DNA of 64,000 nucleotides. Origin: Bacteroidales bacterium. GTDB taxonomy: Bacteria; Bacteroidota; Bacteroidia; Bacteroidales; UBA12077. The notes below the pieces were generated by a model. That model had not been told where the DNA came from and searched no databases. It saw only the letters and a program-made list of their open reading frames with translations. Location: NCBI GenBank assembly GCA_036351015.1, contig JAZBOG010000013.1, forward strand, positions 2,998 through 66,997, in the 5' to 3' direction. A program made the position numbers and the translations under genes. Below, in pieces: positions 8,546 to 28,943 of this stretch; positions within the stretch are counted from its first letter, which is position 1; each line of letters opens with the position of its first letter.

Positions 8546-8548
8546 GTT

Positions 8549-9469: not shown

Positions 9470-9503
9470 GAAAACCCGGATTCCCTGTTCCGGGATTTAC
9501 AGG

Positions 9504-10580: not shown

Positions 10581-10945
10581 GATTCTTCCCACTCGTTATC
10601 GGTTAAATTGATAGTAATCCGCCGGTCTTCATAGAAATGAATCCCATCATTGGAATAGGTGCTTAATGAAGGATGGTTTGAAGTAACCTGGATGTTGTAA
10701 ATATAATCCCCTTCAGCACTTAAGGTAAATGTCCTGCTGCTCCCGGGTTGAATATTACTGCTGATTCGGTTGGAACCAAACCCCGTATGGGCATAGTAAA
10801 CCCCAGTGATAGCATAGAGGGTGGAAGAATTTTCCACCACAAAGAAAGCCTCTTTCTCAAAAGGTTTTTCACAGGTTATCAGTACTGGAAAAACCAATAC
10901 CATTGAGAAAAGTAGTCCCAGGGAAACGTTTTTTATTTTCATCAT
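10568..10945 (-). CDS. Small secreted hypothetical protein
   Basis: It has a signal-peptide-like N-terminus (MMKIKNVSLGLLFSMVLVFPVLITC) and a beta-rich body. It overlaps the convergent upstream gene end by 13 nt. Confidence 0.5.
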   Translation of the reverse strand: MMKIKNVSLGLLFSMVLVFPVLITCEKPFEKEAFFVVENSSTLYAITGVYYAHTGFGSNRISSNIQPGSSRTFTLSAEGDYIYNIQVTSNHPSLSTYSNDGIHFYEDRRITINLTDNEWEESYPW

Positions 10946-11085
10946 TTATGCGATTAATTTATTGCAAATTAGTCAATGATCACCTGAAAGTCAACAGGTT
11001 AAATAATTTATCCGGAATTCGCACGGTTTTTGTGGCTTCTCTTTAAAAAAATGCTTACATTTATTAACCTATAGAAAACGGTTTC

Positions 11086-11808: not shown

Positions 11809-11853
11809 GATTGCCAATCGTTCAGAGATCTTTTTTCTCAAACAATATCTTGA

Positions 11854-12297
11854 TCAAATGATTTTCAGTTTTATCCATCCAAGAGTATAAATCAATGACC
11901 ACAACACTTGTCCTAAAAACAGGTAAAGATAGCTGCTCTTTTTTTTACCGTAATATTTTACATTCAAAAAAGCACCTACAGGAATCGACAGGATCACAGG
12001 GGTTAAAATAACAATTCCGGGGAGACCGTATTTTTTCTTAAGAATGATTAACCGGCGGTTACGTTTACCAAATGTTTTTCGTTTTTTTGTTTTGCAGCGC
12101 CAATTCTCCGGCCAGTAATGATCAAATAAGGAAAGTAAGCCCCTGGATAAGAAAGAAAAGAAGATTAACCCGAGAAGTCCGCCAAGGTTAGTATACAAAA
12201 GGGTTTCGTAAGAAGACATCTGAAATACATAGATGGCAACAGGAAAGGTAGCTGCAAATTTCCAGGTAGCAGAAAAGATAACAATCAGTTCTTTCAT
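11854..12297 (-). CDS. Small integral membrane protein, unknown function
   Basis: It has about 4 hydrophobic segments with a basic loop (KTKKRKTFGKRNRR). Confidence 0.5.
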   Translation of the reverse strand: MKELIVIFSATWKFAATFPVAIYVFQMSSYETLLYTNLGGLLGLIFFSFLSRGLLSLFDHYWPENWRCKTKKRKTFGKRNRRLIILKKKYGLPGIVILTPVILSIPVGAFLNVKYYGKKKSSYLYLFLGQVLWSLIYTLGWIKLKII

Positions 12298-12389
12298 GAT
12301 GAATAAAATTACTGAATTATAACAAATTTATTATTTTTTATTGATTTTAATTTACATCTTTGTATCTATATTATTAGATATTTACAATT

Positions 12390-12638
12390 ATGAAGTTTAA
12401 AAAATTAGAATTACAGGACGAGACCAACTGGCTGAAAAGGTTGATTAAATCACCCCAGACCAAAAAGACTATCTTGTTTACCATCCTGGGTGCGGGAGCA
12501 GGATTTCTCTATTTTTATATAAGTAAAGGAAGAGCGATGAATATCATGGAACCTGGCGAAATTATCCAAAGCCTGTTGGTGGGTGGTTTTTTTGGTTTTT
12601 TTATTACCAACAGCCCGTGTGCCAGGAACCGGTGTTAG
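12390..12638 (+). CDS. Small membrane protein, unknown function
   Basis: The 82-aa product has two hydrophobic segments. It is the last gene before the AT-rich spacer that opens the accessory block. Confidence 0.4.
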   Translation: MKFKKLELQDETNWLKRLIKSPQTKKTILFTILGAGAGFLYFYISKGRAMNIMEPGEIIQSLLVGGFFGFFITNSPCARNRC

Positions 12639-12797
12639 TTAGACAACAATATCTTAAATTGCTTTGAACTAAATACTGAGAATTTACAGGTAGATTAATT
12701 AATATTCCAATTCCTGCAGTATACTCAGGATTTAAAATTTTACAAATTCCTTATTATTAAACATTTTAATATAACTTCTTTTTTTGCTCTTTTTTGT

Positions 12798-12805
12798 TAA
12801 CTTTG
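12798..12805 (+). promoter_or_regulatory. Bacteroidota-type -7 promoter box (TAACTTTG) upstream of hsdR
   Basis: It matches the TAnnTTTG consensus and ends 35 nt upstream of the hsdR ATG, inside an AT-rich spacer. Confidence 0.35.
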
Positions 12806-12840
12806 AATTTACTGATTAATACCTTGTAGATTCAAGTATA

Positions 12841-15636
12841 ATGAGCCCGACAGAAGCAGTAACCAGAAAACAAATCATTGATATCAAGTTAAAAGATGCT
12901 GGGTGGAACGTGAAAGACCGTTCACAAGTAATCGAAGAATTTGATATTGAAGTAGGACTTCCTGAAGGTGTTTCTGAACCGCGAACAGAATATGATGGTC
13001 ATCAGTTCAGTGATTATGTGTTAGTAGGAAAAGATGGCAAACCGCTTGCCGTTGTTGAAGCAAAAAGAACTACCAAAGATGCTGAAATAGGTCGTGAACA
13101 AGCTAAACAATACTGCCAAAATATCGCAAATCAGAATGGGGGTGAACTTCCATTTTGTTTTTATACTAATGGATTAGAAATCTACTTTTGGGATTTAGGG
13201 AATTATCCACCTCGAAAAGTGGTTGGATTTCCTACCAGGGAAGACTTAGAACGTTATCAATACGTAAGAAAAAACAGGAAACCTTTGGCTGATGAACTAA
13301 TCAATCCGAATATTGCCGGGCGTGATTACCAAATGACTGCCATTAGAACTGTGATGGAATCTTTAGAAAAAAAACATCGCAAGTTTTTATTGGTAATGGC
13401 TACTGGAACAGGTAAAACAAGAACCTGTATTGCATTTGTGGATGCTTTAATGCGAGCTGGTTGGGCAGAACGAGTTTTATTCCTTGTTGATCGTATTGCT
13501 TTAAGAAATCAAGCAATAGATGCTTTTAAAGAACATCTGCCTAATGAACCACGTTGGCCCAATCCTGAAGATAAAGAGATTGAAAAGAATCGTCGAATAT
13601 ATGTATCGACATACCCAACGATGTTGAATATAATCCGCAGTGATAAAGCTTTATCTCCGCATTTTTTCGATCTAATAGTAATAGACGAGAGCCATCGTTC
13701 CATTTACAATACGTATCAGGAAGTATTGGACTATTTCAATACCATAAGCCTGGGTTTAACAGCTACACCAACCGATGTAATCGATCATAATACATTTGAT
13801 CTGTTCAATTGTGAAGATGGCATGCCAACGTTTGCCTATTCTTATGAAGAAGCTATAAACCACGAACCACCATACTTATGCGATTTTCAAGTAATGAAAT
13901 TGCACACTAAATTTCAGGTTGAAGGAATTAGTAAACGTACAATCAGCCTTGAAGATCAAAAAAGATTGATTCTGGAAGGAAAAGATGTAGAAGAAATCAA
14001 TTTTGAAGGAACGGACCTTGAAAAGAAAGTAATCAATAAGGGTACAAATACGCTTATCGTAAAGCAGTTTATGGAAGAGTGTATTAAAGATCCTAATGGT
14101 GTATTACCTGGTAAAACCATTTTCTTTTGCTCTTCGATGAAACATGCCCGAAGGATTGAAAAAATATTTGATGCACTATATCCTGAATACAAAGGCGACC
14201 TGGCAAAAGTAATTGTTTCAGACGACCCACGAGTTTATGGCAAAGGTGGATTATTGCACCAGTTTACTCACAGCGATATGCCCCGAGTGGCAATTAGTGT
14301 AGATATGCTTGATACAGGGATTGATGTGCGTGAGATTGTAAATCTTGTATTTGCAAAACCTGTATATTCCTATACCAAATTCTGGCAAATGATTGGTCGT
14401 GGAACTCGTTTATTAGAACCCAAGAAAATCAAACCCTGGTGCCCTGAAAAGGATGTTTTCCTGATTATTGATTGCTGGGATAACTTCGAGTATTTCAAAT
14501 TAACTCCAAAAGGAAAAGAATTAAAACCATCATTGCCTTTACCGGTTAAATTGGTTGGTATCAGATTGGATAAAATCGAAAAAGCAAAAGATACCAATCA
14601 TACTGAAATAGCTCAAAAAGAAATTGAAAAACTACGAAATCAGATAAGCGAATTACCTGAAAAATCCATTGTTATTCAGGATGCTGCAACAGATTTAGAG
14701 AAATTAAAAGATGAAAATTTCTGGATCAATCTATCTCATGATAAAATTGAATTCTTGAGAACCAATATCAAACCATTATTCAGAACAGTATCACAAAGCG
14801 ATTTTAAACGCATGCGTTTTGAAAAAGATGTATTGGAGACATCATTGGCTCACCTGGAAGAAGAAAAAGAAAAATTCGATGCTTTAAAGGATAATTTAAC
14901 CGAACAGATCAGTGAATTACCATTATCGGTTAATATTGTTGCACTTGAAAAGGATTTAATCAAAAAAGCTCAAACCAATCAATATTGGGTTACAGTAACG
15001 GATGATTTAATGGATGAACTGATTGAACGAATTGGACCTTTGATGAAATACAGGCAAGGAGAAGAAAAAACGGGTCCTGTAAGGCTTAATCTACAAGACG
15101 AAATCGTAAAAAAAGAGTTTGTTGAATTTGGTCCTGAACATGAATCGGTGAGTATTACCAAATACCGTGAAATGGTGGAAGAAAAGATCCGTGAACTGAC
15201 TGCCAATAATCCTATCCTTCAAAAATTAAAGGAAGGAATGGATATCAACGAGCAGGAAGCCGAACTCCTGGCTGAGCAGTTACACGATGAAGATCCTTAC
15301 ATTACTCTTGATTTGCTGCAAAAAGTGTATAAAAACCGCAGAGCTAAGTTTATCCAGTTTATCAAGCATATTTTAGGAATTGAAGTCTTGAAAAGTTTTC
15401 CTGAAACCGTAAGTGAATCTATAGATCAATTTATTCAGGAACATAATTATTTATCGACACGACAATTGGAGTTTATTAATCTTTTAAGAGATTATATCAT
15501 ACAACGTGGAAAAATTCAAAAAAAGGACCTTATTCAGGCTCCATTTACGGTAATTCATCCCCAAGGTATACGAGGTGTGTTTTCACCCAAAGAAATTGAA
15601 GAAATTCTTACACTTACACAAGAACTGGTAGCTTAA
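12841..15636 (+). CDS. hsdR: Type I restriction enzyme R subunit (EcoEI/IB-like C-terminus)
   Basis: The N-terminal HSDR_N nuclease has SDYVLVG...AVVEAKR (D...ExK). Helicase motifs are MATGTGKT (I), VIDESHR (II) and LGLTATP (III). The C-terminal block (STRQLEFINLLRDYIIQRG...FTVIHPQGIRGVF) resembles the EcoEI R C-terminal domain. Confidence 0.92.
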   Translation: MSPTEAVTRKQIIDIKLKDAGWNVKDRSQVIEEFDIEVGLPEGVSEPRTEYDGHQFSDYVLVGKDGKPLAVVEAKRTTKDAEIGREQAKQYCQNIANQNGGELPFCFYTNGLEIYFWDLGNYPPRKVVGFPTREDLERYQYVRKNRKPLADELINPNIAGRDYQMTAIRTVMESLEKKHRKFLLVMATGTGKTRTCIAFVDALMRAGWAERVLFLVDRIALRNQAIDAFKEHLPNEPRWPNPEDKEIEKNRRIYVSTYPTMLNIIRSDKALSPHFFDLIVIDESHRSIYNTYQEVLDYFNTISLGLTATPTDVIDHNTFDLFNCEDGMPTFAYSYEEAINHEPPYLCDFQVMKLHTKFQVEGISKRTISLEDQKRLILEGKDVEEINFEGTDLEKKVINKGTNTLIVKQFMEECIKDPNGVLPGKTIFFCSSMKHARRIEKIFDALYPEYKGDLAKVIVSDDPRVYGKGGLLHQFTHSDMPRVAISVDMLDTGIDVREIVNLVFAKPVYSYTKFWQMIGRGTRLLEPKKIKPWCPEKDVFLIIDCWDNFEYFKLTPKGKELKPSLPLPVKLVGIRLDKIEKAKDTNHTEIAQKEIEKLRNQISELPEKSIVIQDAATDLEKLKDENFWINLSHDKIEFLRTNIKPLFRTVSQSDFKRMRFEKDVLETSLAHLEEEKEKFDALKDNLTEQISELPLSVNIVALEKDLIKKAQTNQYWVTVTDDLMDELIERIGPLMKYRQGEEKTGPVRLNLQDEIVKKEFVEFGPEHESVSITKYREMVEEKIRELTANNPILQKLKEGMDINEQEAELLAEQLHDEDPYITLDLLQKVYKNRRAKFIQFIKHILGIEVLKSFPETVSESIDQFIQEHNYLSTRQLEFINLLRDYIIQRGKIQKKDLIQAPFTVIHPQGIRGVFSPKEIEEILTLTQELVA

Positions 15637-18795: not shown

Positions 18796-20046
18796 ATGAA
18801 GATTCTCATTCGAAAACTTGAAGAAATAGCAGATGTTATAGCTGGTCAGTCGCCACCTTCAGTAACTTATAATGAGAAAGGAGATGGTTTGCCATTTTTT
18901 CAAGGGAAAACTGATTTTGGAGAAAAGCATCCCACAATAAGGATTTGGTGTTCAGAACCTAAAAAAATTGCACTCCCAAACGATATTCTGATATCTGTTC
19001 GAGCACCTGTTGGTCCTGTGAATATTGCAAATAAGAAATCATGTATTGGAAGGGGTTTAAGTGCAATCAGAACTAAAGAAGGTAATAGCATAGATTTCTT
19101 ATTTTATTTTTTAAAATCAAATGAAAGATTAATTGCAAAAAATGCATCAGGCTCAACTTTTAGTGCAATAACTCAAAAGGATTTAAAAGAATTAAAAATA
19201 CCAATCCCTGAAAAACTTAAAGATCAAATTCACATAGCCAATGTATTATCCCGAGCAGAAACATTAATTACCAAACGCAAAGAAAGTATTCAGTTACTGG
19301 ATGAACTTCTGAAATCTACCTTTTTGGATATGTTTGGTGATCCGGTTAGAAATGAAAAAGGGTGGGAGAAAAAAGCTACTATTTCATATGCTGATTGTAT
19401 TGTTCCTGGAAGAGACAAACCAAAAAGTTTTACTGGAGATATTCCGTGGGTTACTACTGATGATCTAGAACATTTATCAACAACAATAAAGTCAAAAAAG
19501 GATATTGGACTTTTAAGAGATGAAATAAAGCAAGTAAAAGCAAGATTAATTCCTAAAGACAGTGTTCTGATGACTTGTGTGGGTGATTTAGGAGTTATAT
19601 CATTAGCTGGGCAAGATATGGTAGTAAATCAACAATTACATTCTTTTCAGTGTAAAGAAGATATTAACAATAAATTCTTAATGTTTGCATTGTCTTATCA
19701 GAAAAAATATATGTACAGAAAAGCTTCAAAAACGACTGTTCCTTACATGAATAAGACTATATGCAATAGCATTCCAGTAATTAAGCCGCCATTGGAATTA
19801 CAAAACAAATTTGCTCAAATAGTTGAAAAAGTAGAAAAAATCAAAACCAAATACCAGGAAGGCTTGCAAGAACTGGAAAACCTGTATGCTTCGTTGAGCC
19901 AAAAAGCTTTTTCATCTGCCGGAAATTTATTGAAGGCAGGTAAAGGTGAGTTGGATTTGAGTAAGATGGAAATAGAGCAGGAGAGATTGGATATAGCTGC
20001 GGAAGAAGGAGTGGGGTATGGGAAAAAGAGTCATCTAAAAAAGTAA
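18796..20046 (+). CDS. hsdS: Type I R-M specificity subunit (two target-recognition domains)
   Basis: The ATG directly abuts the hsdM stop. There are two TRD-like halves separated by the conserved helical spacer (IANVLSRAETLITKRKESIQLLDELLKSTFLDMFGDP). The C-terminal conserved helix is FAQIVEKVEKIK...LYASLSQKAF. Confidence 0.9.
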   Translation: MKILIRKLEEIADVIAGQSPPSVTYNEKGDGLPFFQGKTDFGEKHPTIRIWCSEPKKIALPNDILISVRAPVGPVNIANKKSCIGRGLSAIRTKEGNSIDFLFYFLKSNERLIAKNASGSTFSAITQKDLKELKIPIPEKLKDQIHIANVLSRAETLITKRKESIQLLDELLKSTFLDMFGDPVRNEKGWEKKATISYADCIVPGRDKPKSFTGDIPWVTTDDLEHLSTTIKSKKDIGLLRDEIKQVKARLIPKDSVLMTCVGDLGVISLAGQDMVVNQQLHSFQCKEDINNKFLMFALSYQKKYMYRKASKTTVPYMNKTICNSIPVIKPPLELQNKFAQIVEKVEKIKTKYQEGLQELENLYASLSQKAFSSAGNLLKAGKGELDLSKMEIEQERLDIAAEEGVGYGKKSHLKK

Positions 20047-20047
20047 A

Positions 20048-20070
20048 AGGCTGCCATTTCTGACAGCCCT
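20048..20070. terminator. Hairpin between convergent hsdS and a small minus-strand ORF
   Basis: GGCTGCCATTTCTGACAGCC forms an imperfect 8-bp stem followed by CTTTTATTT. Confidence 0.5.
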
Positions 20071-20075
20071 TTTAT

Positions 20076-20219
20076 TTAACCTACTTTTCTATACTCTGTG
20101 TTATCACATTTTGGACAAGGTGGTAGTGTATCACTATCATCATCCAGTATTACTATTTGAAAACACTTTGTACATTGATACCTGCCTTTTCCAGGCTTCT
20201 CTCCAGTTCTGTAAATCAT
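20076..20219 (-). CDS. Small zinc-ribbon protein (47 aa), absent from the ORF track
   Basis: I translated it by hand as MIYRTGEKPGKGRYQCTKCFQIVILDDDSDTLPPCPKCDNTEYRKVG. The CxxC...CxxC arrangement resembles FmdB-type zinc ribbons. Confidence 0.5.
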   Translation of the reverse strand: MIYRTGEKPGKGRYQCTKCFQIVILDDDSDTLPPCPKCDNTEYRKVG

Positions 20220-20248
20220 TTTTTTTTTAAGATTTTAAAAGTTTAACA

Positions 20249-20416
20249 TTATTTTTCTTTCCGTACACCCTTAAATGGGTCTTCATCATGTTTTACATCC
20301 ATAAACTTACCATCTGGACCACGTTTAATCCAATGTCCATTAGGATGCTTAAACTGACTACGATCACGAACAGCTCCAACCCGGTGATTGTCACCGTATG
20401 GTTTATTTCTCGCCAT
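20249..20416 (-). CDS. Small basic hypothetical protein (55 aa), absent from the ORF track
   Basis: I translated it by hand as MARNKPYGDNHRVGAVRDRSQFKHPNGHWIKRGPDGKFMDVKHDEDPFKGVRKEK. The composition is more protein-like than the antisense 70-aa track ORF at 20288-20500. Confidence 0.45.
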   Translation of the reverse strand: MARNKPYGDNHRVGAVRDRSQFKHPNGHWIKRGPDGKFMDVKHDEDPFKGVRKEK

Positions 20417-21171
20417 TTTAATAGATTTTTCTCATCTTCTACAACCAGTAGGAGAAGACTAACCACCAAGGTCTTTTCTGTTCTTTTGATTTTTAATTAA
20501 ACTTTTCTTAAATTTGACTTGCACATTCAAAATGAAAAATTAATTAAGGCCAGGTCAAATTTCCTTGTAAAACGCACCTGGCTTTACTATATACAAAAAT
20601 ACCGCTTAATCCCTTTATTTCCGAGAGGTACAAAGCAAAAGTTTTCCACAAGGCACTATTTTAACTGCACTATTATCAATTAGTTATAATTATTTGTGTT
20701 AATTTTTAATAATCTATAACAACAACAAAATCAATATTTTATGACTTTTCTTTAAAACAAGCAATTTAAAACCCTTTAATACTCTTTTTATCAAGATCTT
20801 ATAACATATATGTGTTGAAAACTTCCTGATCAATTCAAAATTAAAGAATCATGAAATAGTAATCTTACAGTTTAAACTTCCTAAACCCGCATTGTTTTTT
20901 TAGATAAGTTTTGTAGTAAAAGTGGCTTTTACAAAGAATTAGTAGCTTAATGCTTTGTTGATTCAGTCAAACATTTAAAATATCAAATTTAGTTAATGAG
21001 TAAATTTGAATTATTAAAGATAATAACGTCTTTAATAACAAATGCTAAATACTTGGATATTAAAAAATAAAGATATAATTTCATAATTCCTGCCGCCCAA
21101 TTAGGGCATACATAAGAACGAAATTTGGATTGGAACCGGAGTGTTAATTTATTAATTAATATAAATATATC

Positions 21172-23121
21172 ATGAAAGTTCTTACTAAATCAAGATTTAA
21201 ATTAGGACTAGAATGTCCAAACAAGCTATTTTATACACAAAAAAAGGAATATGCCAACACGAAGGAGTTAGATCCGTTTCTTGAAGCTTTAGCCCAAGGT
21301 GGTTTCCAAGTTGAAGAACTCGCAAGAATGCATTACCAAAATGGAATCTTAATTGAAGGTAATGATGGAGACTATGAATATCTATGGAATAGAACATTAG
21401 AGTTGCTGAAACAAGATGATGTTATAATCTATGAAGCAGCATTTTTATATAATGAATTGTTTGTTCGAACTGATATCTTGGTAAAAAAAGGAAATAATAT
21501 TGAATTAATTGAAGTAAAGGCAAAATCATTTGATCCGAATGATGATAATATATTCATTGGCAAAAGAGGAGGTATGGTAAGTAAATGGAAAGCATACTTA
21601 TTCGATGTGGCTTTTCAAAAATATGTCATTCAGCAATGTTTCCCAGAATGGAATATTAATTCATTCATAATGATGGCTGATAAAACAAAAAAAGCGAGTA
21701 TAAATGGTTTAAATCAACTTTTTAGAATAAGCAGTAAAACGGATCATAGAACAGGTATTATAAATAAGGCTAATTCAATAGAAGATACTGGAGATTCAGT
21801 TTTAGGAAGAAAAAATATAACTCAAATAGTATCTGAAATTGAATCTGATAAGCACAAATATCATGATAATTTAACATTTATTGAATCAATAAATCTATTT
21901 AAGGATTTATATCTTAAAGATGAATATTGCAGTTGGCCAGCATCTTTTGGAGCTTGCAAAAATTGTGAGTTTAAAAGTTCGGATGATACGCTTAAATCAG
22001 GTTTTAAGGAGTGCTTTAAAAAACAGTTTAATTGGAGTGAATATGACTTTAATAAACCTAATATTCTAGATATATATGATTTTCGAAAAGGACATAAATT
22101 ATTTGCTGAAGGTATATTCTTTAAGGATGAATTAACCGAAGAAAAAATTGATCTAAAAACCGATCCTAAAAAACTTACTAATTCTCATAGACAATGGTTA
22201 CAAATTGAAAAAGAAGTAAGAAATGATAATTCCTTTTATATAGATAAAGATGGACTAAAGGAAACTATGAATGAATGGACTTTTCCTTTACACTTCATAG
22301 ATTTTGAGACCAGTGCAGTTGCGCTGCCTTTTAATGAAGGTAGAAAGCCATATGAGCAAATTGCTTTTCAATTTTCTCACCATGTATATCACAAAGATGG
22401 AAAAATAGAACATGCTAATGAGTACATAAACAATCAACCTGGTGTTTTTCCAAATTTTGAATTTATTAGGGAATTAAAAAAAGCGTTGGGAAATGATAAT
22501 GGTACAGTTTTCAGGTACGCTGATCATGAAAACAGCATTCTTAATGCAATTTATTCTCAATTACTAGACTCGAATGAAAGTGATAAAGAAGAGTTAATGA
22601 ATTTTATTCAAGACATATCACATTCAACCAAAGGAAATGCGATAGAATGGGAAGGGGCAAGGGATATGGTGGACCTTTGTAAAGTTGAGAAATACTTTTA
22701 TTATAATCCTTTTACAAAAGGATCTAATTCAATCAAACAAGTATTACCGGCTTCATTGAGTTCGAGTAGTTATCTACAAGAAAAGTATTCAAAGCCTATT
22801 TCACAAATCAACTTAACTAGTAAAAATTTTAGTAGTGATCATATATGGTTAAAAATAGAAAATGGTGCAGTAGAAAATCCATATAAATTACTTCCACCCG
22901 TATTTAATGAATGGAGTGATGATCAAGTTGAAAATGTATTATCAGAAATTGAAGATATTGCTGATGGTGGTGCTGCTCTTACAGCTTACGGCAAGTTACA
23001 ATATACCGATATGGAGCAGGAAGAAATTGATGCAATTACATCTGCTTTATTAAAATATTGCGAATTAGACACATTAGCAATGGTAATGATATATGAACAT
23101 TTTAAAGAAATAACCGAATAA
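21172..23121 (+). CDS. DUF2779-like protein: Cas4/RecB-like PD-(D/E)XK nuclease domain fused to a DEDD (DnaQ-like) exonuclease-like domain
   Basis: RTDILVKKGNNIELIEVKAKS gives the D...ExK motif. The Cys set C15 ... CSWPASFGACKNCEF...KEC is arranged like a Cas4 Fe-S cluster. In the C-terminal half, HFIDFETS gives DxE, YADHENSILNAI is HN-like and CELDTLAMV supplies an Asp. Confidence 0.75.
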   Translation: MKVLTKSRFKLGLECPNKLFYTQKKEYANTKELDPFLEALAQGGFQVEELARMHYQNGILIEGNDGDYEYLWNRTLELLKQDDVIIYEAAFLYNELFVRTDILVKKGNNIELIEVKAKSFDPNDDNIFIGKRGGMVSKWKAYLFDVAFQKYVIQQCFPEWNINSFIMMADKTKKASINGLNQLFRISSKTDHRTGIINKANSIEDTGDSVLGRKNITQIVSEIESDKHKYHDNLTFIESINLFKDLYLKDEYCSWPASFGACKNCEFKSSDDTLKSGFKECFKKQFNWSEYDFNKPNILDIYDFRKGHKLFAEGIFFKDELTEEKIDLKTDPKKLTNSHRQWLQIEKEVRNDNSFYIDKDGLKETMNEWTFPLHFIDFETSAVALPFNEGRKPYEQIAFQFSHHVYHKDGKIEHANEYINNQPGVFPNFEFIRELKKALGNDNGTVFRYADHENSILNAIYSQLLDSNESDKEELMNFIQDISHSTKGNAIEWEGARDMVDLCKVEKYFYYNPFTKGSNSIKQVLPASLSSSSYLQEKYSKPISQINLTSKNFSSDHIWLKIENGAVENPYKLLPPVFNEWSDDQVENVLSEIEDIADGGAALTAYGKLQYTDMEQEEIDAITSALLKYCELDTLAMVMIYEHFKEITE

Positions 23122-23123
23122 TT

Positions 23124-24131
23124 ATGCCAAAAAATAAAGAAGCACTCAAAAGATATAGAATTATACACAATGTCTTAAGAAGGGGTGGGAAGCACAAATC
23201 AAGCAGAATAATGGAGATCTGTAATGATGCAGGAATACCAGTTAAAATAAGAACAATTCAAAAAGATTTAGAAGATTTAGCGGAAGACACTGAATTAGGT
23301 TTTTTTCTTCCAATAAAAAAAGATGAGAGTTCCAAAACCTACTATTATGAAGAAATACCTGATTATATATTTCCATCGTTAGAGTTAGAGCCTGGCGAAA
23401 TAAATGCATTACTTTTTTATGCAAAAACAATTAGCCAGTATAAAGATTATCCTTTATTTAATGAAATATCAAAAGCAGTTCAGAAAGTACTAGAAAACTC
23501 AAATATTGCCCCACATACTAGAGAGTTATTTGAAAAAGAGACATTACTAGAAACAGAAAAACACCCTTCAATTGGTGGCATTGAGCTTATTGCAGACATT
23601 TTAGAAGCCATTACAACCAAAAGGGTTATTCAAGTAGATTATCAAAGATTTGATGACTTTATACGCAAACATGAAGTCAAACCAATTTTACTGAAAGAAG
23701 ATAAAAAATTATGGTATATAATTGGTTATAGCTTAGATAAAAATTCAATAATTACACTTGCTTTAGATAGAATAATTGATGTAACTGTCACAGAAAAGAA
23801 ATTCAGGAAAATAGAATTCAATAGCACAGAATATTTTAAATATTCATTTGGAATTACGGTTTTAAATCATGAACCTATTGAAGTTGTAATCTCATTTAAT
23901 CCTGAACAAGGAAATTACTTAAAAACACTACCAATACACTCAACCCAAACTATCTTATCAGATACAGATAGGGAATTTGTAATTTCAGTTAAAGTAATTC
24001 CATCATATGAGTTTTTCTCTAAAATAAGTAGTTATGGTGATCAAGCAACCGTAATTTCTCCAGAAACTATCCGCGATTATTTTATTGAGTCTATTACCAA
24101 CTCCTTAAAAAACTACGAATCAATACTATAG
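23124..24131 (+). CDS. WYL-domain transcriptional regulator (wHTH-WYL-WCX; BrxR/CapW-like architecture)
   Basis: It has an N-terminal HTH (RYRIIHNVLRRGGKHKSSRIMEICNDAGIPVKIRTIQKDLEDL), a WYL core (KKLWYIIGYSLDKNSIITLALDRI) and a C-terminal extension. The start lies 3 nt after the upstream stop. Confidence 0.85.
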   Translation: MPKNKEALKRYRIIHNVLRRGGKHKSSRIMEICNDAGIPVKIRTIQKDLEDLAEDTELGFFLPIKKDESSKTYYYEEIPDYIFPSLELEPGEINALLFYAKTISQYKDYPLFNEISKAVQKVLENSNIAPHTRELFEKETLLETEKHPSIGGIELIADILEAITTKRVIQVDYQRFDDFIRKHEVKPILLKEDKKLWYIIGYSLDKNSIITLALDRIIDVTVTEKKFRKIEFNSTEYFKYSFGITVLNHEPIEVVISFNPEQGNYLKTLPIHSTQTILSDTDREFVISVKVIPSYEFFSKISSYGDQATVISPETIRDYFIESITNSLKNYESIL

Positions 24132-24163
24132 TAAAAGAAACGAAAAATATTTATGATTTATTT

Positions 24164-24203
24164 ACATGGCGCAAGTACACTGCGCCATGTCGTATTTTCT
24201 TTG
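24164..24203 (+). terminator. Perfect 10-bp GC-rich hairpin with T-rich tail between the WYL gene and the Ubl operon
   Basis: ACATGGCGCA-AGTACAC-TGCGCCATGT (24164-24190) is followed by CGTATTTTCTTTG. It could be a terminator, an operator or both. Confidence 0.55.
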
Positions 24204-24239
24204 TAATGTAAAATTAGGTTTAATTTAAATTTTAGGACA

Positions 24240-24521
24240 ATGGTAACTAAAGAAAACAAAAATGATGCCCCAGGGCAAAACAAAGAATTTACGATTTATG
24301 TAAATGGAACGCCAGAAACATGGCATAGTAAAGAAATCTCATTCAGCGAAGTGGTATCACTGGCTTTTGAAAAACCACCTTATGGTGTAAATACGGAATA
24401 TCAAGTAGTTTTTTCAGAAGCATTGGGTCCATTAAAGGAAGGAACTTTGGCTGAAGGTCAAACGGTGCATATTAAAAAGGAAGGGACGCAATTCGATGTT
24501 AGCGCAACTGATAAGTCATAA
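24240..24521 (+). CDS. Small beta-grasp, ubiquitin-like (multiubiquitin-domain-like) protein
   Basis: The 93-aa product reads EFTIYVNGTPETWHSKEISFSEVVSLAF...YQVVF...GTLAEGQTVHIKKEGTQFDV, which fits my memory of the prokaryotic multiubiquitin domain pattern. It ends ...SATDKS with no terminal Gly. Confidence 0.65.
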   Translation: MVTKENKNDAPGQNKEFTIYVNGTPETWHSKEISFSEVVSLAFEKPPYGVNTEYQVVFSEALGPLKEGTLAEGQTVHIKKEGTQFDVSATDKS

Positions 24522-25674
24522 TGATGACATAAAACGACTATGGGATGAAGGACTTGTAATGGAAGAAAGAAATAGCTTCCTTATTATTCATAGAGTACCA
24601 TACTTAAATTCCAAAAAGGAAATTAAGTATGGTTCCCTTGTTTCAAACCTTCAATTGAGTGGATTTATAACAAATAAAAATCCTTCTCATACAGTATATT
24701 TTGCAGGAGAAATTCCATGCAAATTAAATGGAAAACCTTTTTCAATTGTGAATAATAGTAAAGCTTGTGAAATTGCTAATGGCTTTAAAGTTGACCATTA
24801 TTTTTCAAGTCTCCCTAAACCACATGGATATAAGGACTACTATCATAAAATGATGACGTATATTAATATGATATCTGCTCCAGCTAAAGCGTTAGATTCA
24901 TCAGTTACCGAAAAAGGTAAACAAATTCTTCAAACAGATGCAGAATCAGTTTTTAACTATATGGATACCAACTCTAGTAAACCAGAATTAAGTTTATTCT
25001 CTGAGTTATATAAAAACCAGAAAATTGGAATCATTGGACTTGGAGGAACGGGGTCATATATCTTAGATTTAGTAAGCAAAGTTCCTGTAAAAGAGATTCA
25101 TATCTACGATATGGACTGGTATTATAATAATAATGCGTTTAGGTCTCCTGGTGCGGCATCTATTAAAGATCTTTTAATCCCTAAGAAAAAAGTGGATTAT
25201 TACAAGGAAATTTATTCTAAGATGCATAAAGGAATCTTTGCACATCCTGAGAATATTACTTCAACTAATATTAATGAACTATTGAATTACCACTTTATTT
25301 TTTTAAGTATTGATAAAGGTGATATTAAAAAGGAAATAATTCAGTTGCTAGAAGAAAATAAAATCCCTTTTATTGATGTTGGAATGGGAATTTATAACAA
25401 TAAAGGTGCATTGACAGGTTTAATAAGAGTTACTACGGGGACACCAGAAAAAACAGATCATATCTGGAATAAAGGATGTATATCCTTTAAAGAAGGTCTT
25501 GATAATGAATATGACTCTAATATTCAAATAGCTGAACTTAATTCATTAAATGCTGCACTGGCAGTTATAAAATGGAAGAAACTGTTGGGATACTATCATG
25601 ATCTAACAAAAGAACATAATATGTTTTATCGAATTAATTCAAATAAAATGTTAAATGAAGAAACTGAGACATGA
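24496..25674 (+). CDS. E2-like domain fused to ThiF/E1-type adenylyltransferase
   Basis: The C-terminal Rossmann domain has KIGIIGLGGTGSYILD (GxGGxG), IHIYDMD, FRSPG and DVGMG. The N-terminal ~150 aa carry SHTVYFAGEIPC (H65-x9-C75), spaced like HPN...C of UBC enzymes. The ATG at 24496 overlaps the Ubl ORF by 26 nt; the next in-frame Met is at 24559. Confidence 0.8.
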   Translation: MLAQLISHNDDIKRLWDEGLVMEERNSFLIIHRVPYLNSKKEIKYGSLVSNLQLSGFITNKNPSHTVYFAGEIPCKLNGKPFSIVNNSKACEIANGFKVDHYFSSLPKPHGYKDYYHKMMTYINMISAPAKALDSSVTEKGKQILQTDAESVFNYMDTNSSKPELSLFSELYKNQKIGIIGLGGTGSYILDLVSKVPVKEIHIYDMDWYYNNNAFRSPGAASIKDLLIPKKKVDYYKEIYSKMHKGIFAHPENITSTNINELLNYHFIFLSIDKGDIKKEIIQLLEENKIPFIDVGMGIYNNKGALTGLIRVTTGTPEKTDHIWNKGCISFKEGLDNEYDSNIQIAELNSLNAALAVIKWKKLLGYYHDLTKEHNMFYRINSNKMLNEETET

Positions 25675-26029
25675 GTTTGTAGAGTTTATTCCTAAGGAAT
25701 TAGAAGATAATGTAATCTATATTTCGATTCGTTTCAAAACAGTAGTGCACAAATGTGCTTGCGGGTGTGGAAATAAAACTGTTACTAGGTTATCTCCAAC
25801 AGATTGGAAATTTACTTTTGATGGCGATTCTGTTACGCTTTATCCTTCAATCGGAAACTGGGGGTTTCCATGCCAATCTCATTACTGGATAACTAATAAT
25901 AAAATAGAATGGGCTGAAAGTTGGTCTAATAAATGGATATCTAGTAACAGAGAAACAGCCAAAAAAGAAAAAAGGAAATATTTCAAGAAAAAGAAAAGAT
26001 GGAATTTTCTAAAATCTATATTATCATAA
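25655..26029 (+). CDS. Zinc-ribbon protein, DUF6527-like
   Basis: The 124-aa product has HKCACGCGNK ... FPCQSHYW (CxCxC...CxxH) and a Lys-rich tail. It overlaps the E1 stop by 20 nt. Confidence 0.65.
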   Translation: MKKLRHEFVEFIPKELEDNVIYISIRFKTVVHKCACGCGNKTVTRLSPTDWKFTFDGDSVTLYPSIGNWGFPCQSHYWITNNKIEWAESWSNKWISSNRETAKKEKRKYFKKKKRWNFLKSILS

Positions 26030-26060: not shown

Positions 26061-26145
26061 AATGTTATGACTTAGAATACAGTAATTTAATTTGTGTTTT
26101 GTATTCTTATTAGTAACTTTAAATAAAATACAAATATGCCTAGTT

Positions 26146-27609
26146 ATGTTTATTAGAAATTTATTCTTTCTATTATTTATAGTGGATATACTTATTATAT
26201 GGCTTTTTCCTGAAGGAACATTAAAGAGTATAACAATAGCAATAATTTCTGTTTTATTATGTGCTTCTGGTTATTCATTCAAAGATATTTTTGAGAAGAA
26301 GCTTAAACAAAAATCAATAAAAAGATTTCAGAATATTATTATAGAGAGATTCAATAATTACTTTTATTTTCAATTAGGATTTAGAATTAATACCAATTCA
26401 TTGAAATATGAAGAGAATGAAATTGAGATACTTCAAGAATCCATAAAAAATTGTCTTGGTGAAGATTCAAGTAAGATAAAAGTTAATTCACTATTATTAT
26501 GTTATCAATGTAAAAAATGGGATGAAACTAAGTCTCCTGAAGATTTTCAACAGATACAAATTCAATCTGAAAATTTGGGAATAAAATATGGAGAGATTAC
26601 GTCAGATGTGCATATGTTTTTGGAGTATTATTCAAAATTAATTCTTAAAAAGGAAAACACTGAAAATGATAAAGAAATTTTTGATCAATTTTCAGTAAAA
26701 CATTATAAAGATCTTCAGTTTTATAGTATTAAAGAAGAACTTTATCAGTCAAAGAACCTACATGATACTTTAGTCAAACTTATAAAAGATGGGAAACTAT
26801 CAACATACGGAATAAATTCAGATTCATTATACAAACTCCAAAAAGACTTACAAACAAAGTACTTAAAACAAAACACTTACTTAATCTTTACTAATAAAAT
26901 TCCAGAAAATGTAAGATCCTATCTAAAAAGTTTACCAGGATTTTCGGGAAGTCGTATTTGGTCAAAAAATGTACCTGAACATAGCAGTTTGTTTGGTGCA
27001 TACATCGTAAGACCACCTGAAATACATTCAATTGATGAGTTAATTGAAATAATTAAATTAAAAGCTGGTAAGCAGGATTCCCAAACCTTAATAAGGATAA
27101 TTCCGCTTGATTTCTTGCATAGTAAAATATATACAATCCCAGAGGATCAAAGTTTTACAACAAGAGGTTTGCAAGAGAGTTACGAAACATTAGAATGGTT
27201 TAGAACAGGTTATGTCATGCAAGATTCAGTAATATGGAATGAAATTGCAAAATCTAGTATAAGTCCAAATGAATTATTAAAAGTAATTCCTTTCAATATT
27301 TTTTGCCCAGGAATTATACCTGTTGAGCAGAGTTTTTTAATTAAACATTATGATACAATTAAAACAGAATTTAATATTGAAAAATTAGATGAATGGCGTA
27401 ATGTGGATGCAAGTTTAATGCGTGATTATATTTTAAATTTAGGAAAACCTGAATATTCAGAAGAACATTTTAATAATACACTTAAACTTAATAAAGATTC
27501 TAGTGATGACGATTTCAAAGAAGCGGTAAGGGTAAGGATGTTAGAACTTTGCGAACAAATAAAAGATAAATCAAATGATTTTTATAATTCTATGCAACAC
27601 CAAAACTAA
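26146..27609 (+). CDS. Membrane-anchored protein of unknown function (2 N-terminal TM segments + ~430-aa soluble region)
   Basis: The track ORF begins at a TTG (26092). The first ATG (26146) gives MFIRNLFFLLFIVDILIIWLF...ITIAIISVLLCASGY. I recognise no motif in the remainder. Confidence 0.55.
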   Translation: MFIRNLFFLLFIVDILIIWLFPEGTLKSITIAIISVLLCASGYSFKDIFEKKLKQKSIKRFQNIIIERFNNYFYFQLGFRINTNSLKYEENEIEILQESIKNCLGEDSSKIKVNSLLLCYQCKKWDETKSPEDFQQIQIQSENLGIKYGEITSDVHMFLEYYSKLILKKENTENDKEIFDQFSVKHYKDLQFYSIKEELYQSKNLHDTLVKLIKDGKLSTYGINSDSLYKLQKDLQTKYLKQNTYLIFTNKIPENVRSYLKSLPGFSGSRIWSKNVPEHSSLFGAYIVRPPEIHSIDELIEIIKLKAGKQDSQTLIRIIPLDFLHSKIYTIPEDQSFTTRGLQESYETLEWFRTGYVMQDSVIWNEIAKSSISPNELLKVIPFNIFCPGIIPVEQSFLIKHYDTIKTEFNIEKLDEWRNVDASLMRDYILNLGKPEYSEEHFNNTLKLNKDSSDDDFKEAVRVRMLELCEQIKDKSNDFYNSMQHQN

Positions 27610-27615
27610 TCACTC

Positions 27616-28701
27616 ATGAATAAAGAGATATTACAAAATCATATTAAGAACTTCCTAAATAAACTTAACAATGAACCAGAAACCTTAAAAAGCGGCCAAG
27701 TCGAAAGAGAAGAAAGAATTGCATATTATCAAAGCTGGACGAAGGATAAAATACTTATCATGACACCAGATGATTTGCTTGAATATTTAAGTAAATTATG
27801 GGCTATGCTTATATGGGGTAATAAGCAATATGCTGTGGATAAAATGATTTTAGATAATGAATTAGATCATTTAAGAAAGGAATTGGCAGAACTACTTTGG
27901 GGGGCAGAAAACATTGAAAAACGGTGGGATAGGGGGCGTAAAAATATTAAAGGGATGGGGCCTGCCATGCTAAGTGAGCTTTTATGTCATGTTCATCCTG
28001 ACGATCACATATTATGGAATAGAAGAGCTTTTGTTGGTTTTAATTATTTAGAAATTAATAATTTACCACGTTACAATTATCAACTAACAGGTAAAAAATA
28101 TAAGGAACTATCAATTATTGCCAAGGATATTGCAATTGAGATGAAAAAAGCAGGTGCAAAAGATTACACATTATTAGCAGTTGATTATTTCATTTGGGAA
28201 GAACTTCAAGTCGAAGATAATCTTACACAAATACACAAAAAGGTAAAGGATGAAAAACCTGTAGAAAAACTCACAAGCGAAGAATCTAAGTTTATTCATA
28301 ATGATGTGCGTGACGCAATAAGTGAAATTGGAGATTGGTTAGGTTTTAAATCTCATATTGAAAAGAAAGTAGCTGACGGTTCTGTTGTTGATGCAGTGTG
28401 GGAAGCCACGATTGGTAATATGGGGCGAGTAATGTATGTATTTGAGGTTCAGACAAAAGGCTCAATTGATAGCTTAATTTTAAATCTGTTAAAGGCACGA
28501 AATAATCCAGCAGTTCAAGGTGTAGTAGCTGTTTCAGATGCAAAACAATTAGAAAAAATCAAGAAACATGCTGCTGGTGTACCTGGTTTAGGTGAAATTC
28601 TAAAAGTATGGGACTATAACGAAGTTCTAAAAGCTCATGAGAGCTTGGAATTTGTTAATTCTACTATAAACAAGCTTAATTTAGTACCTGAAGGTTTTTG
28701 A
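27616..28701 (+). CDS. Hypothetical protein with C-terminal PD-(D/E)XK-like nuclease motif
   Basis: The C-terminus reads ISEIGDWLGF...VVDAVWEAT...VMYVFEVQTKGS, an E...D...ExQxK arrangement. The N-terminal helical region contains IKGMGPAMLSELLCHVHPDDHILWN, which looks HhH-like. The start lies 6 nt after the upstream stop. Confidence 0.55.
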   Translation: MNKEILQNHIKNFLNKLNNEPETLKSGQVEREERIAYYQSWTKDKILIMTPDDLLEYLSKLWAMLIWGNKQYAVDKMILDNELDHLRKELAELLWGAENIEKRWDRGRKNIKGMGPAMLSELLCHVHPDDHILWNRRAFVGFNYLEINNLPRYNYQLTGKKYKELSIIAKDIAIEMKKAGAKDYTLLAVDYFIWEELQVEDNLTQIHKKVKDEKPVEKLTSEESKFIHNDVRDAISEIGDWLGFKSHIEKKVADGSVVDAVWEATIGNMGRVMYVFEVQTKGSIDSLILNLLKARNNPAVQGVVAVSDAKQLEKIKKHAAGVPGLGEILKVWDYNEVLKAHESLEFVNSTINKLNLVPEGF

Positions 28702-28943
28702 AAATTATCAATATGCTAAAATTACATGAAGCGATTGCAGTTGTTTTATTAAATAAGCCCAACAGAACAGCATCAGAGCAAGAGATTGCAGATGAAATAA
28801 ACAAAAGAAATTTGTATCAACGTAGGGATGGTAATCCGGTTCCAGCATACCAAATAATGCAAAGAACTAAACTTGCTAAAGGTCTATATCATCATTTGTT
28901 TGATTATCAGTCAAAAGACAGAATAGTTTTAAAGAATTTATAA
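28698..28943 (+). CDS. Small winged-helix (HARE/Mrr_N-like) protein
   Basis: LHEAIAVVLLNKPNRTASEQEIADEINKRNLY...GNPVPAYQIMQR fits a wHTH. The track start is a TTG overlapping the upstream stop; an alternative ATG lies at 28713. Confidence 0.5.
   Translation: MKIINMLKLHEAIAVVLLNKPNRTASEQEIADEINKRNLYQRRDGNPVPAYQIMQRTKLAKGLYHHLFDYQSKDRIVLKNL

What the first reader, a model, noticed from the sequence alone, without database searches (positions are those of the whole stretch)
21172..24131. DUF2779-type dual-nuclease-like protein co-transcribed with a WYL regulator at the head of the gene array
The 649-aa ORF combines two motif sets. The first is a Cas4/RecB-like PD-(D/E)XK motif (DILV...ELIEVKAKS) with a four-Cys arrangement (C15; CKNCEF; KEC), as in Fe-S nucleases. 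The second lies in the C-terminal half and has a DnaQ-like DxE (IDFETS), an HN-type motif (ADHENS) and a distal Asp (CELDTLAM). The WYL regulator gene starts 3 nt after its stop, and the regulator has the BrxR/CapW-like wHTH-WYL-WCX architecture. WYL regulators of that type are known to sit at the front of defence operons (BREX, CBASS and others) and to respond to DNA damage or nucleic-acid ligands. So the nuclease-like gene may be a stand-alone effector, and the regulator may control the downstream Ubl operon. DUF2779 has, to my knowledge, no assigned defence function.
Basis: partly seen in the sequence, partly recalled or inferred. Interest (0 to 1): 0.6.

Follow-up and report, generated by a model that had tools for sequence, protein, structure and literature searches.

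The report
Nuclease-plus-WYL switch heading swappable defence operons
A two-headed DNA nuclease gene and a DNA-damage-type (WYL) regulator, with the regulator's DNA box, form a portable front end found before many different anti-phage operons in Bacteroidota; the parts are known kinds, but the nuclease partnership and the activator-like promoter layout are not described.

Summary
ORF 21172-23121 is an intact DUF2779 protein. It has a Cas4/RecB-like PD-(D/E)XK half with four invariant Cys and a DEDDy/YprB-type exonuclease half. It is coupled by a 2-nt spacer to a wHTH-WYL-WCX regulator (23124-24131).

New here: the regulator is DriD-like, with a three-helix bundle. The palindrome at 24166-24188 is its conserved box. 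The box is found only after WYL genes. It lies 15 nt (16 in two loci) from a TTTG -7-type box, where a -33 element should be. The cargo behind it varies: type II Bub here; Bil-like, CBASS I/II/III, Pycsar and PDC-M48 elsewhere.

DUF2779 precedes WYL in 23 of 80 close-homologue loci and in most close WYL relatives, and also on an Aliarcobacter plasmid. The pairing is facultative. A recombination breakpoint lies exactly at the DUF2779/WYL junction. No box lies upstream of DUF2779, so it is not the regulated effector.

Best reading: an ssDNA-sensing switch for the Bub operon, with DUF2779 as a constitutively co-expressed first-line nuclease or ssDNA source (inferred). The dual-nuclease architecture and the WYL-Bub link are already published. 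I rate this a new variant of a known kind.

The parts
20868..21171 (+). Conserved 5' flank of the module; it holds a sigmaA -7-type box TAAATTTG at 21001-21008, a candidate promoter of the DUF2779-WYL operon
   Evidence: Nucleotide homology with the closest relative L149 begins at about 20868. TAAATTTG is at 21001. No WYL box or half-site is present here.
21172..23121 (+). DUF2779 gene: N-terminal Cas4/RecB-like PD-(D/E)XK nuclease (D101, E114, K116, Q149; Cys15/262/265/281) plus C-terminal DEDDy/YprB-type exonuclease (D377, E379, E453, D501, Y629-x3-D633)
   Evidence: Pfam PF11074; invariant residues; AF2 model pLDDT 92.8, pTM 0.90; fold matches.
23124..24131 (+). DriD-like wHTH / three-helix-bundle / WYL / WCX transcription factor, translationally coupled to DUF2779
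   Evidence: Pfam WYL+WCX; PDB profile hits to DriD, PafBC and BrxR; AF2 model; Foldseek gives DriD 8tp8 E 1.7e-14, CapW 9e-10, BrxR 5e-9.
24166..24188 (.). 23-bp palindromic WYL box ATGGCGCA-N7-TGCGCCAT, spanning about -42 to -20 of the cargo promoter; it can also fold as a terminator-like hairpin (24164-24190)
   Evidence: Unique in the window. The pattern ATSRCG-N11-CGYSAT occurs once per WYL-bearing locus and never in 58 WYL-less loci. Fixed spacing to TTTG. Terminator-like by pattern scan.
24196..24203 (+). -7-type promoter box TTTCTTTG of the Bub operon; the G lies 15 nt after the palindrome; predicted transcription start near 24208
   Evidence: TTTG at +15 in 21 of 23 module copies and at +16 in 2, also in L143 and L145. 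The flavobacterial sigmaA box TAnnTTTG occupies -12 to -5 (PMC9723704).
24240..26029 (+). Regulated cargo: type II Bub operon, BubA Ubl (24240-24521), BubBD E2-E1 fusion (24496-25674), BubE DUF6527 protease (25655-26029)
   Evidence: Pfam Multi_ubiq, DUF6791+ThiF, DUF6527; definition of type II Bub in PMC11601596.

Best explanation
Window 20868-24242 is a portable 'head module' of Bacteroidota defence islands. It comprises a constitutively expressed bicistron (DUF2779 dual nuclease, then a DriD-like WYL transcription factor) followed by the factor's 23-bp palindromic box. The box is placed where the -33 element of the next promoter should be.

Shown: the box, its 15-nt spacing to the -7-type TTTG, and the WYL gene are inherited together in front of unrelated cargo operons (type II Bub here).

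Inferred from the family (DriD, PafBC, CapW, BrxR all sense ssDNA): the WYL dimer binds the box and switches the Bub operon on when single-stranded DNA appears during phage attack or DNA damage. The most likely mode is activation that replaces the missing -33 contact, as in DriD. De-repression is the alternative.

DUF2779 is not under the box, so it sits on the input side. It is most likely a first-line Fe-S Cas4-like 5'-3' plus DEDDy 3'-5' nuclease acting on free DNA ends. Its resection products would supply the ssDNA cue that licenses the second-line cargo. This last step is inference only.
For: Architecture and invariant catalytic residues of DUF2779.

WYL model and DriD as best structural match over 341 columns, including a three-helix bundle.

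Box ATSRCG-N11-CGYSAT occurs only after WYL genes: 16 loci plus the window with the exact pattern, near-variants in the rest, and none in 58 WYL-less loci.

Two box variants track WYL subfamilies.

Spacing to TTTG is 15 nt in 21 of 23 copies.

No -33 TTTG at the proper distance (sequence).

The DriD box ATACGAC-N7-GTCGTAT has the same 13-bp CG-to-CG spacing. It sits over the missing -35 at a fixed distance from -10 (PMC13004042).

Cargo varies: Bub, Bil-like, CBASS I/II/III, Pycsar, PDC-M48.

DUF2779-WYL adjacency:
- 23 of 80 loci, and WYL is the only recurrent neighbour among 500 neighbour clusters.
- It is clustered on the DUF2779 tree (0 of 500 shuffles).
- DUF2779 is frequent on the WYL side: at least 13 of 19 top WYL relatives (by matching contig lengths), and two of three further relatives checked directly.
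- It is also seen on an Aliarcobacter plasmid.

No box or half-site upstream of DUF2779.

Restricted phage infection is a natural ssDNA cue for WYL regulators (bioRxiv 10.1101/2025.11.13.688357).
Against: The pairing is facultative. 57 of 80 close DUF2779 homologues lack a +1 WYL. A 68%-identical WYL with box and Bub cargo has a type II R-M system instead of DUF2779.

A recombination breakpoint sits exactly at the DUF2779/WYL junction: 95% nt identity drops to about 60%. The Mantel r is only 0.42. The two genes are therefore not tightly co-adapted.

Two DriD ssDNA-contacting arginines (R204, R207) align to I210 and A213 here (alignment with PMC10853764), so the ligand is unproven.

The palindrome also satisfies a terminator pattern, and in some loci its flanks extend the hairpin with compensatory changes.

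No nuclease, Fe-S or DNA-binding assay exists.
Confidence: 0.6

Rival explanations
1. The WYL protein is a CapW/BrxR-type repressor. It sits on the box and blocks RNA polymerase at the cargo promoter until ssDNA binding releases it.
For: CapW and BrxR are the WYL regulators known at the head of CBASS, BREX and 8% of Bub operons, and both are ssDNA-released repressors. A box spanning -42 to -20 would occlude polymerase. CapW and BrxR are significant fold matches (E 1e-9 to 1e-8).
Against: DriD and PafBC (activators) match better (E 1e-14 to 1e-11; TM 0.56 against 0.32-0.36) and share the three-helix bundle. The promoter lacks a -33 element and the box has a rigid phase to the -7 box, as in DriD promoters. 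The regulator gene is not autoregulated from this box, unlike brxR and capW.
Confidence: 0.33
2. DUF2779 is an independent stand-alone nuclease (defence or repair) that merely shares an island and a transcript with the regulator. It neither feeds nor is controlled by the WYL switch.
For: Most close homologues occur without WYL, beside R-M, patatin, Fic and other island genes. There is a recombination breakpoint at the junction. WYL-box-Bub exists without it. The family is large and patchy: 62 of 401 Bacteroidota genomes, about 40 of them full-length, and quasi-essential in a minimal Mycoplasma (PMC13621843).
Against: WYL is the only recurrent neighbour. The genes are tightly coupled (gaps mostly of a few nt or overlapping) in 23 loci. 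Adjacency recurs in Campylobacterota and Bacillota plasmids. In the unbiased sample roughly 5 of about 40 full-length copies lie within 5 kb of a WYL gene, against about 0.1% expected (rough estimate).
Confidence: 0.35
3. DUF2779 damps the switch. By degrading ssDNA and short oligonucleotides from both ends, it keeps the WYL sensor off in uninfected cells and resets it after an attack.
For: It combines 5'-3' (Cas4-like) and 3'-5' (DEDDy) exonuclease domains. It is co-expressed with the sensor rather than with the cargo. The cargo includes abortive-infection systems such as CBASS and Pycsar, which need tight control.
Against: There is no direct evidence. The same data fit the signal-generating role. 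WYL-cargo modules work without it.
Confidence: 0.15
4. The palindrome is only an intrinsic terminator of the DUF2779-WYL transcript, not a protein-binding site.
For: It has a 10-bp stem with 6 GC pairs, a 7-nt loop and a T-rich tail, and is picked by the terminator scan. The hairpin is extended with compensatory flanks plus T-runs in L029, L030 and L040.
Against: The stem sequence itself is conserved (ATSRCG...CGYSAT) across WYL proteins only 37-72% identical to the window's. It occurs only next to WYL genes in about 1.6 Mb of loci. Its distance to the next promoter box is fixed at 15 nt, while its distance from the WYL stop varies from 8 to 34 nt. It resembles the DriD box. The fold z-score of the spacer is only -1.76.
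Confidence: 0.07

Closest known systems
DriD (Caulobacter crescentus), ssDNA-activated WYL transcription activator
   Same: Same wHTH / three-helix bundle / WYL / WCX layout and length (335 vs 327 aa), and the best fold match. Both use a palindromic box with an N7 spacer and the same 13-bp CG-to-CG spacing. In both, the box overlies a missing -35/-33 element at a fixed distance from the -10/-7 box.
   Different: DriD controls chromosomal DNA-damage genes from a bidirectional promoter. Here the factor heads mobile defence cargo in Bacteroidota sigmaA promoters, is not autoregulated from the box, and is co-transcribed with a nuclease. Two ssDNA-contacting arginines are not conserved.
CapW / BrxR, WYL repressors of CBASS, BREX and some Bub operons
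   Same: A WYL regulator at the front of defence operons with a palindromic operator. The same cargo classes occur: CBASS, and Bub (8% of 544 Bub operons carry such a regulator, PMC11601596).
   Different: CapW and BrxR are about 285-295 aa and give weaker fold matches. They are autoregulating repressors, and no nuclease partner has been described for them.
DUF2779 / PF11074 family (RNase H-like family F.17 of Majorek 2014; MMSYN1_0389 of JCVI-syn3.0)
   Same: Same fusion of a Cas4-like PD-(D/E)XK domain with a DEDD-type exonuclease domain, with Tyr in place of His in Exo III.
   Different: The window protein keeps all four Cys (MMSYN1_0389 has two). It lies in a defence island coupled to a WYL regulator. 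No function has been assigned in either case.
CapH+CapP and CapK+CapS two-gene regulators upstream of immune operons
   Same: An enzyme plus a transcription factor encoded as a pair in front of many different immune operons, responding to DNA damage or ssDNA.
   Different: Those enzymes (a protease, a kinase) modify the repressor. Here the enzyme is a nuclease, the factor senses a nucleic-acid ligand itself, and the coupling is facultative.
DdaA (Moraxellaceae), WYL activator of DNA-damage and defence genes
   Same: A precedent for a WYL activator that raises R-M and CRISPR immunity under DNA damage (PMC12392091).
   Different: DdaA is a global chromosomal regulator that replaces SOS, not a cassette-borne local switch.

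Membership tests
DUF2779 (Pfam PF11074) | Match to the family model above the gathering score | tested here: met
   79.7 bits vs cut-off 23.3, residues 374-520; all 60 aligned homologues match.
Cas4/RecB-like PD-(D/E)XK nuclease | Catalytic D ... E-x-K and the Q motif | tested here: met
   D101, E114, K116 and Q149 are invariant in 60 sequences.
Cas4/RecB-like PD-(D/E)XK nuclease | Four Cys (one N-terminal, three C-terminal) for an Fe-S cluster | tested here: met
   C15, C262, C265 and C281 are invariant. The spacing is CX2CX15C, not the CX2CX5C I recall for Cas4. Cluster binding itself cannot be tested here.
Cas4/RecB-like PD-(D/E)XK nuclease | Significant sequence or fold similarity to Cas4-family proteins | tested here: inconclusive
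   Pfam PDDEXK_1 and Cas_Cas4 matches are only sub-threshold, in 4 and 2 of 60 members. There is no PDB sequence hit. Foldseek PDB: Cas4-Cas1 7mi4 prob 0.96 but E 0.088. The generic PD-(D/E)XK fold is significant in BFVD, E 3.6e-6. Published HHpred gives E 2e-6 for a family member (PMC13621843).
DEDD (DnaQ-like) 3'-5' exonuclease | Exo I DxE, Exo II acidic residue, Exo III (H/Y)x3-4D | tested here: met
   D377-x-E379 and Y629-x3-D633 are invariant. The Exo II position is ambiguous (E453 of HEN, or D501, both invariant).
DEDD (DnaQ-like) 3'-5' exonuclease | RNase H-like exonuclease fold | tested here: met
   BFVD: CroV 'YprB ribonuclease H-like domain' protein at E 1e-12 over both domains. PDB: DinG with its exonuclease domain, prob 0.98, E 8e-3.
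wHTH-WYL-WCX transcription factors (DriD, PafBC, CapW, BrxR) | WYL and WCX domains with an N-terminal winged HTH | tested here: met
   Pfam WYL 6.5e-11, WCX 2.9e-8. The model shows a wHTH at residues 1-76. 32 PDB matches with E<=1e-3, all WYL-domain proteins (DriD, PafBC, CapW, BrxR and one CRISPR-associated WYL protein).
wHTH-WYL-WCX transcription factors (DriD, PafBC, CapW, BrxR) | Dimer binding a palindromic operator in the regulated promoter | tested here: inconclusive
   A conserved 23-bp palindrome co-inherited with the gene at fixed promoter spacing is strong comparative evidence. Binding itself is not testable here.
wHTH-WYL-WCX transcription factors (DriD, PafBC, CapW, BrxR) | ssDNA as the WYL-domain ligand | not testable with these tools
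   The WYL Tyr (Y198) and the LDR Arg (R216) are invariant, but the equivalents of DriD R204 and R207 are I210 and A213.
DriD-type activator subclass | Three-helix bundle between wHTH and WYL; box replaces the -35/-33 element at a fixed distance from the -10/-7 box | tested here: met
   Helices 90-104, 110-124 and 130-139. DriD is the best match, TM 0.56. The 15-nt spacing and the absent -33 box compare with PMC13004042. Activation itself is untested.
Known anti-phage system containing DUF2779 | Match of DUF2779 to any PADLOC-DB v2 model | tested here: not met
   No PADLOC hit. No defence paper among the 7 that mention DUF2779 or the 2 that mention PF11074.
Type II Bub operon (cargo) | BubA Ubl, BubBD E2-E1 fusion, BubE DUF6527 | tested here: met
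   Multi_ubiq, DUF6791+ThiF and DUF6527 in order, with overlapping reading frames (PMC11601596).

The most novel reading that the evidence does not exclude
DUF2779 and the WYL factor form a two-component invader sensor. The dual nuclease attacks free ends of incoming linear DNA. Its resection products are the ligand that makes the DriD-like factor activate whichever abortive-infection cargo lies behind the box. This would be the first dedicated ligand-generating enzyme for a WYL regulator. It would be a third enzyme-plus-regulator pair, after CapH/CapP and CapK/CapS, found ahead of diverse immune operons, and it recurs across phyla.
Probability: 0.25. Interest if true: 0.8.

Novelty: new variant of a known kind. 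Interest (0 to 1): 0.55.

Why it matters
How inducible anti-phage systems sense infection is an open question. WYL regulators are known to read ssDNA, but where that ssDNA comes from is unclear.

This locus gives three things:
- A precisely delimited, conserved box-promoter unit that predicts activator-type (DriD-like) control of Bub, CBASS, Pycsar and Bil operons in Bacteroidota, where almost nothing is known about defence regulation.
- A candidate enzymatic source (or sink) of the signal in DUF2779, a large family (more than 5,500 clusters at 50% identity) with no assigned function.
- A practical beacon. Whatever follows the box is likely defence cargo, including operons with no database match (L143, L033).

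Tried and rejected
- A single-protein scan of genome contigs found no relatives because the patterns were too specific. An alignment-based scan worked.
- Sequence and profile searches of the PDB with DUF2779 gave nothing meaningful.
- NCBIfam gave only a sub-threshold UU173 tail match.
- PADLOC gave no hit for DUF2779.
- Whole-protein Foldseek against the PDB was weak (best E 8e-3). The viral library gave significant matches.
- Rfam found no RNA family in 20000-24300.
- I searched for a second WYL box or half-site upstream of DUF2779 in the window and in 22 loci and found none. I therefore rejected the idea that DUF2779 is an output of this regulator.
- I rejected 'DUF2779 is a phage gene': 0 of 50,697 phage records match.
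- I rejected 'housekeeping single-copy gene': it is patchy (62 of 401 genomes), has two copies in some genomes, and its tree ignores taxonomy.
Full report
**Observation**

They lie in a low-GC block (0.28-0.35 against about 0.43) from roughly 12.4 to 29.5 kb. This block also holds a type I R-M system and is bounded on the right by a TPR lipoprotein gene and gyrA.

Pfam assigns DUF2779 to the first protein and WYL+WCX to the second. The next three genes are Multi_ubiq, DUF6791+ThiF and DUF6527. That is a type II Bub operon as defined in PMC11601596.

**DUF2779 protein**

The family is very large. There are more than 7,400 word-index hits. Among 50%-identity representatives, 5,511 score E<=1e-3 and 736 score E<=1e-30.

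- C15, D101, E114, K116, Q149, C262, C265 and C281 in the first half.
- D377, E379, E453, D501, Y629 and D633 in the second half.

The second half is therefore a DEDDy-type active site (Y-x3-D). The AlphaFold model is confident (pLDDT 92.8, pTM 0.90).

Foldseek results differ by library:
- Against the PDB the matches are weak but thematically consistent: DinG with its exonuclease domain, Cas4-Cas1, MGME1, ACE1 and SSO0001 Cas4, with best E 8e-3.
- Against BFVD the matches are significant. Giant-virus proteins match over both domains (CroV YprB RNase H-like protein, E 1e-12). More than 20 phage PD-(D/E)XK nucleases also match (E down to 3.6e-6).

Sequence-level matches to Cas4/PDDEXK Pfam models are only sub-threshold.

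The dual-nuclease architecture is already in the literature: Majorek 2014 family F.17 and MMSYN1_0389 in mSphere 2026. This part is confirmed but not new. No PADLOC model and no defence paper covers DUF2779. It is absent from 50,697 phage records and present on 30 plasmids.

**WYL protein**

A profile of 21 orthologues hits DriD, PafBC and BrxR chains in the PDB. The model (pLDDT 83) shows four parts in order: a winged HTH (1-76), three helices (90-139), the WYL domain and the WCX domain.

Foldseek ranks DriD first (E 1.7e-14, 341 aligned columns, TM 0.56). PafBC follows (1e-11), then CapW (9e-10) and BrxR (5e-9, TM 0.32-0.36).

**The box**

In 80 genome loci carrying close DUF2779 homologues, every locus with a downstream WYL gene has one 23-bp palindrome 8-34 nt after the WYL stop. 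The pattern ATSRCG-N11-CGYSAT occurs once in each of 16 such loci and once in the window. It never occurs in the 58 WYL-less loci, nor elsewhere in about 1.6 Mb. The remaining loci carry near-variants.

There are two variants. ATGGCGCA-N7-TGCGCCAT goes with WYL proteins at least 49% identical to the window's. ATCGCGAAAT-N3-ATTTCGTGAT goes with those at about 40%.

The G of a T-rich TTTG box lies 15 nt after the palindrome in 21 of 23 module copies, and 16 nt in the other two. The same holds in L143 and L145. The flavobacterial sigmaA box TAnnTTTG occupies -12 to -5 (PMC9723704). The palindrome therefore spans about -42 to -20, and no -33 TTTG is present.

This matches the logic reported for DriD. 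Its box, ATACGAC-N7-GTCGTAT, has the same 13-bp CG-to-CG spacing. That box lies over an absent -35 at an invariant distance from -10 (PMC13004042).

The palindrome also satisfies a terminator pattern. In some loci its flanks extend the hairpin with compensatory changes, so a second role as terminator of the upstream bicistron is plausible.

**Cargo**

The operon behind the box differs between loci:
- Type II Bub: window, L003, L014, L017, L036, L041, L044.
- Ubl + Prok-E2_E + ThiF: L001; L002, L018 and L039 by matching gene sizes.
- Ubl + E1 + JAB: L020; L079 by matching gene sizes.
- CBASS with Cap15: L008.
- CBASS III with HORMA/TRIP13/SAVED: L029; L025, L027, L030 and L040 by matching gene sizes.
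- CBASS II: L042, inferred from gene sizes only.
- Pycsar: L004.
- A Bil operon: L149.
- A PDC-M48/E2 set: L145.
- Unknowns: L033, L143.

L145 sits at the same chromosomal site as the window (TPR gene and gyrA to its right) but carries different cargo.

**Link between DUF2779 and WYL**

- WYL is the only recurrent neighbour of DUF2779. It is at +1 on the same strand in 23 of 80 loci, with gaps mostly of a few nt or overlapping. The other 670 neighbour proteins fall into 500 clusters.
- The +1 WYL trait is clustered on the DUF2779 tree: 11 changes against 20.3 in shuffles, 0 of 500. Whole subclades are linked, and the tree ignores taxonomy.
- From the WYL side, at least 13 of 19 of the closest relatives on contigs of at least 8 kb share a contig with a top DUF2779 hit. 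Two of three apparent exceptions also have DUF2779 at -1. One has a type II R-M system instead.
- In an even sample of 401 Bacteroidota genomes, 62 carry DUF2779 (about 40 full-length) and 146 carry WYL genes. Several pairs are adjacent or within a few kb. By my rough estimate this is about 100-fold above chance.
- The same order, DUF2779 then WYL, is annotated on an Aliarcobacter plasmid. A WYL gene lies four genes away on a Selenomonas plasmid. This agrees with earlier scan notes from other phyla.

**Limits of the link**

- Pairwise identities of the two proteins correlate only moderately (Mantel r 0.42).
- Against the closest relative L149, nucleotide identity is 0.81-0.95 across DUF2779 (0.95 in its last 150 nt). 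It falls to 0.57-0.75 from position 23094 onward. Homology starts near 20868 and ends near 24242. So WYL, box and cargo are exchanged as a cassette against a conserved DUF2779 anchor.
- No box or 8-mer half-site lies within 400 nt upstream of DUF2779 in any of 23 loci. Candidate constitutive sigmaA promoters lie at 20483-20516 and 21001. DUF2779 is therefore not the regulated output.

**Interpretation**

- Shown: a portable module of DUF2779, a DriD-like WYL factor and a box-promoter unit precedes diverse defence cargo.
- Inferred from family knowledge: the factor senses ssDNA and switches the Bub operon on. I favour activation (about 0.55) over de-repression (about 0.35).
- Inferred only: DUF2779, expressed with the sensor, acts on free DNA ends as a first-line nuclease whose products feed the switch. 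This echoes the finding that restricted infection is the natural cue for WYL regulators.
- Live alternatives: independence of DUF2779, or a damping role.

**Novelty**

Already described: the domain architecture of DUF2779, WYL regulators at defence operons, the WYL-Bub association, and WYL activators of defence genes (DdaA).

Not described, as far as the searchable literature shows: the recurrent DUF2779-WYL bicistron, the DriD-type box geometry in Bacteroidota defence promoters, and cassette exchange at the DUF2779/WYL junction.

Noticed in passing
window 26092-28943: Three tightly packed genes after BubE (505, 361 and 81 aa) have no Pfam, NCBIfam or PADLOC match. They are absent from the other Bub-bearing loci, so they look like a separate unknown island cassette.
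   Followed up: partly
window 20249-20416 (-); L083 820-987, L084 3016-3183: The 55-aa basic ORF upstream of DUF2779 has 64-68% identical copies about 0.5 kb downstream of 45%-identical WYL genes in two other genomes. It may be another recurrent island passenger.
   Followed up: no
window 20483-20582: A canonical Bacteroidota promoter, TTTG-N20-TAAATTTG (20483-20516, + strand), lies 650 nt upstream of DUF2779. It is followed by the hairpin GCCAGGT-N20-ACCTGGC. No Rfam match; this could be a long leader or a small RNA.
   Followed up: partly
L082 1209-1498 (= L144 7015-7291): In the genome whose WYL is 68% identical but lacks DUF2779, a GC-rich insert of about 290 nt separates the WYL stop from the box. 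Its nature is unknown.
   Followed up: no
L039 10001-11968: DUF2779 is split into two ORFs (a likely frameshift or pseudogene), while the WYL gene, the box and the Ubl/E2/E1 cargo behind it stay intact.
   Followed up: no
L145 3311-6211: At the same chromosomal site as the window (TPR gene and gyrA on the right), the box is followed by a LmuA-like N-terminal domain protein, a CBASS-type E2 and a PADLOC candidate PDC-M48A protein. This is cargo exchange at one hotspot.
   Followed up: partly
L143 7104-12360; L033 13027-14307: The cargo behind the box has no Pfam or PADLOC match (137, 224, 190 aa and others; 427 aa). These are candidate undescribed defence genes flagged by the head module.
   Followed up: partly
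L024, L032, L034, L037, L038, L049 (around 8000-14500): A second recurrent DUF2779 context without WYL: a patatin-like protein (594 aa) upstream, and an EEP-like 392-aa plus a PG_binding 413-aa protein downstream.
   Followed up: partly
L067: A contig labelled as a Rhizobium MAG carries a DUF2779 that nests among Bacteroidota sequences with very short branches. This is probably a binning contaminant.
   Followed up: no
BFVD hits A0A3G4ZWN9, E3T4R0, A0A3G5AGZ9: Giant viruses (Faunusvirus, CroV, Sylvanvirus) encode proteins that match both DUF2779 domains end to end (E 1e-12 to 6e-8).
   Followed up: no
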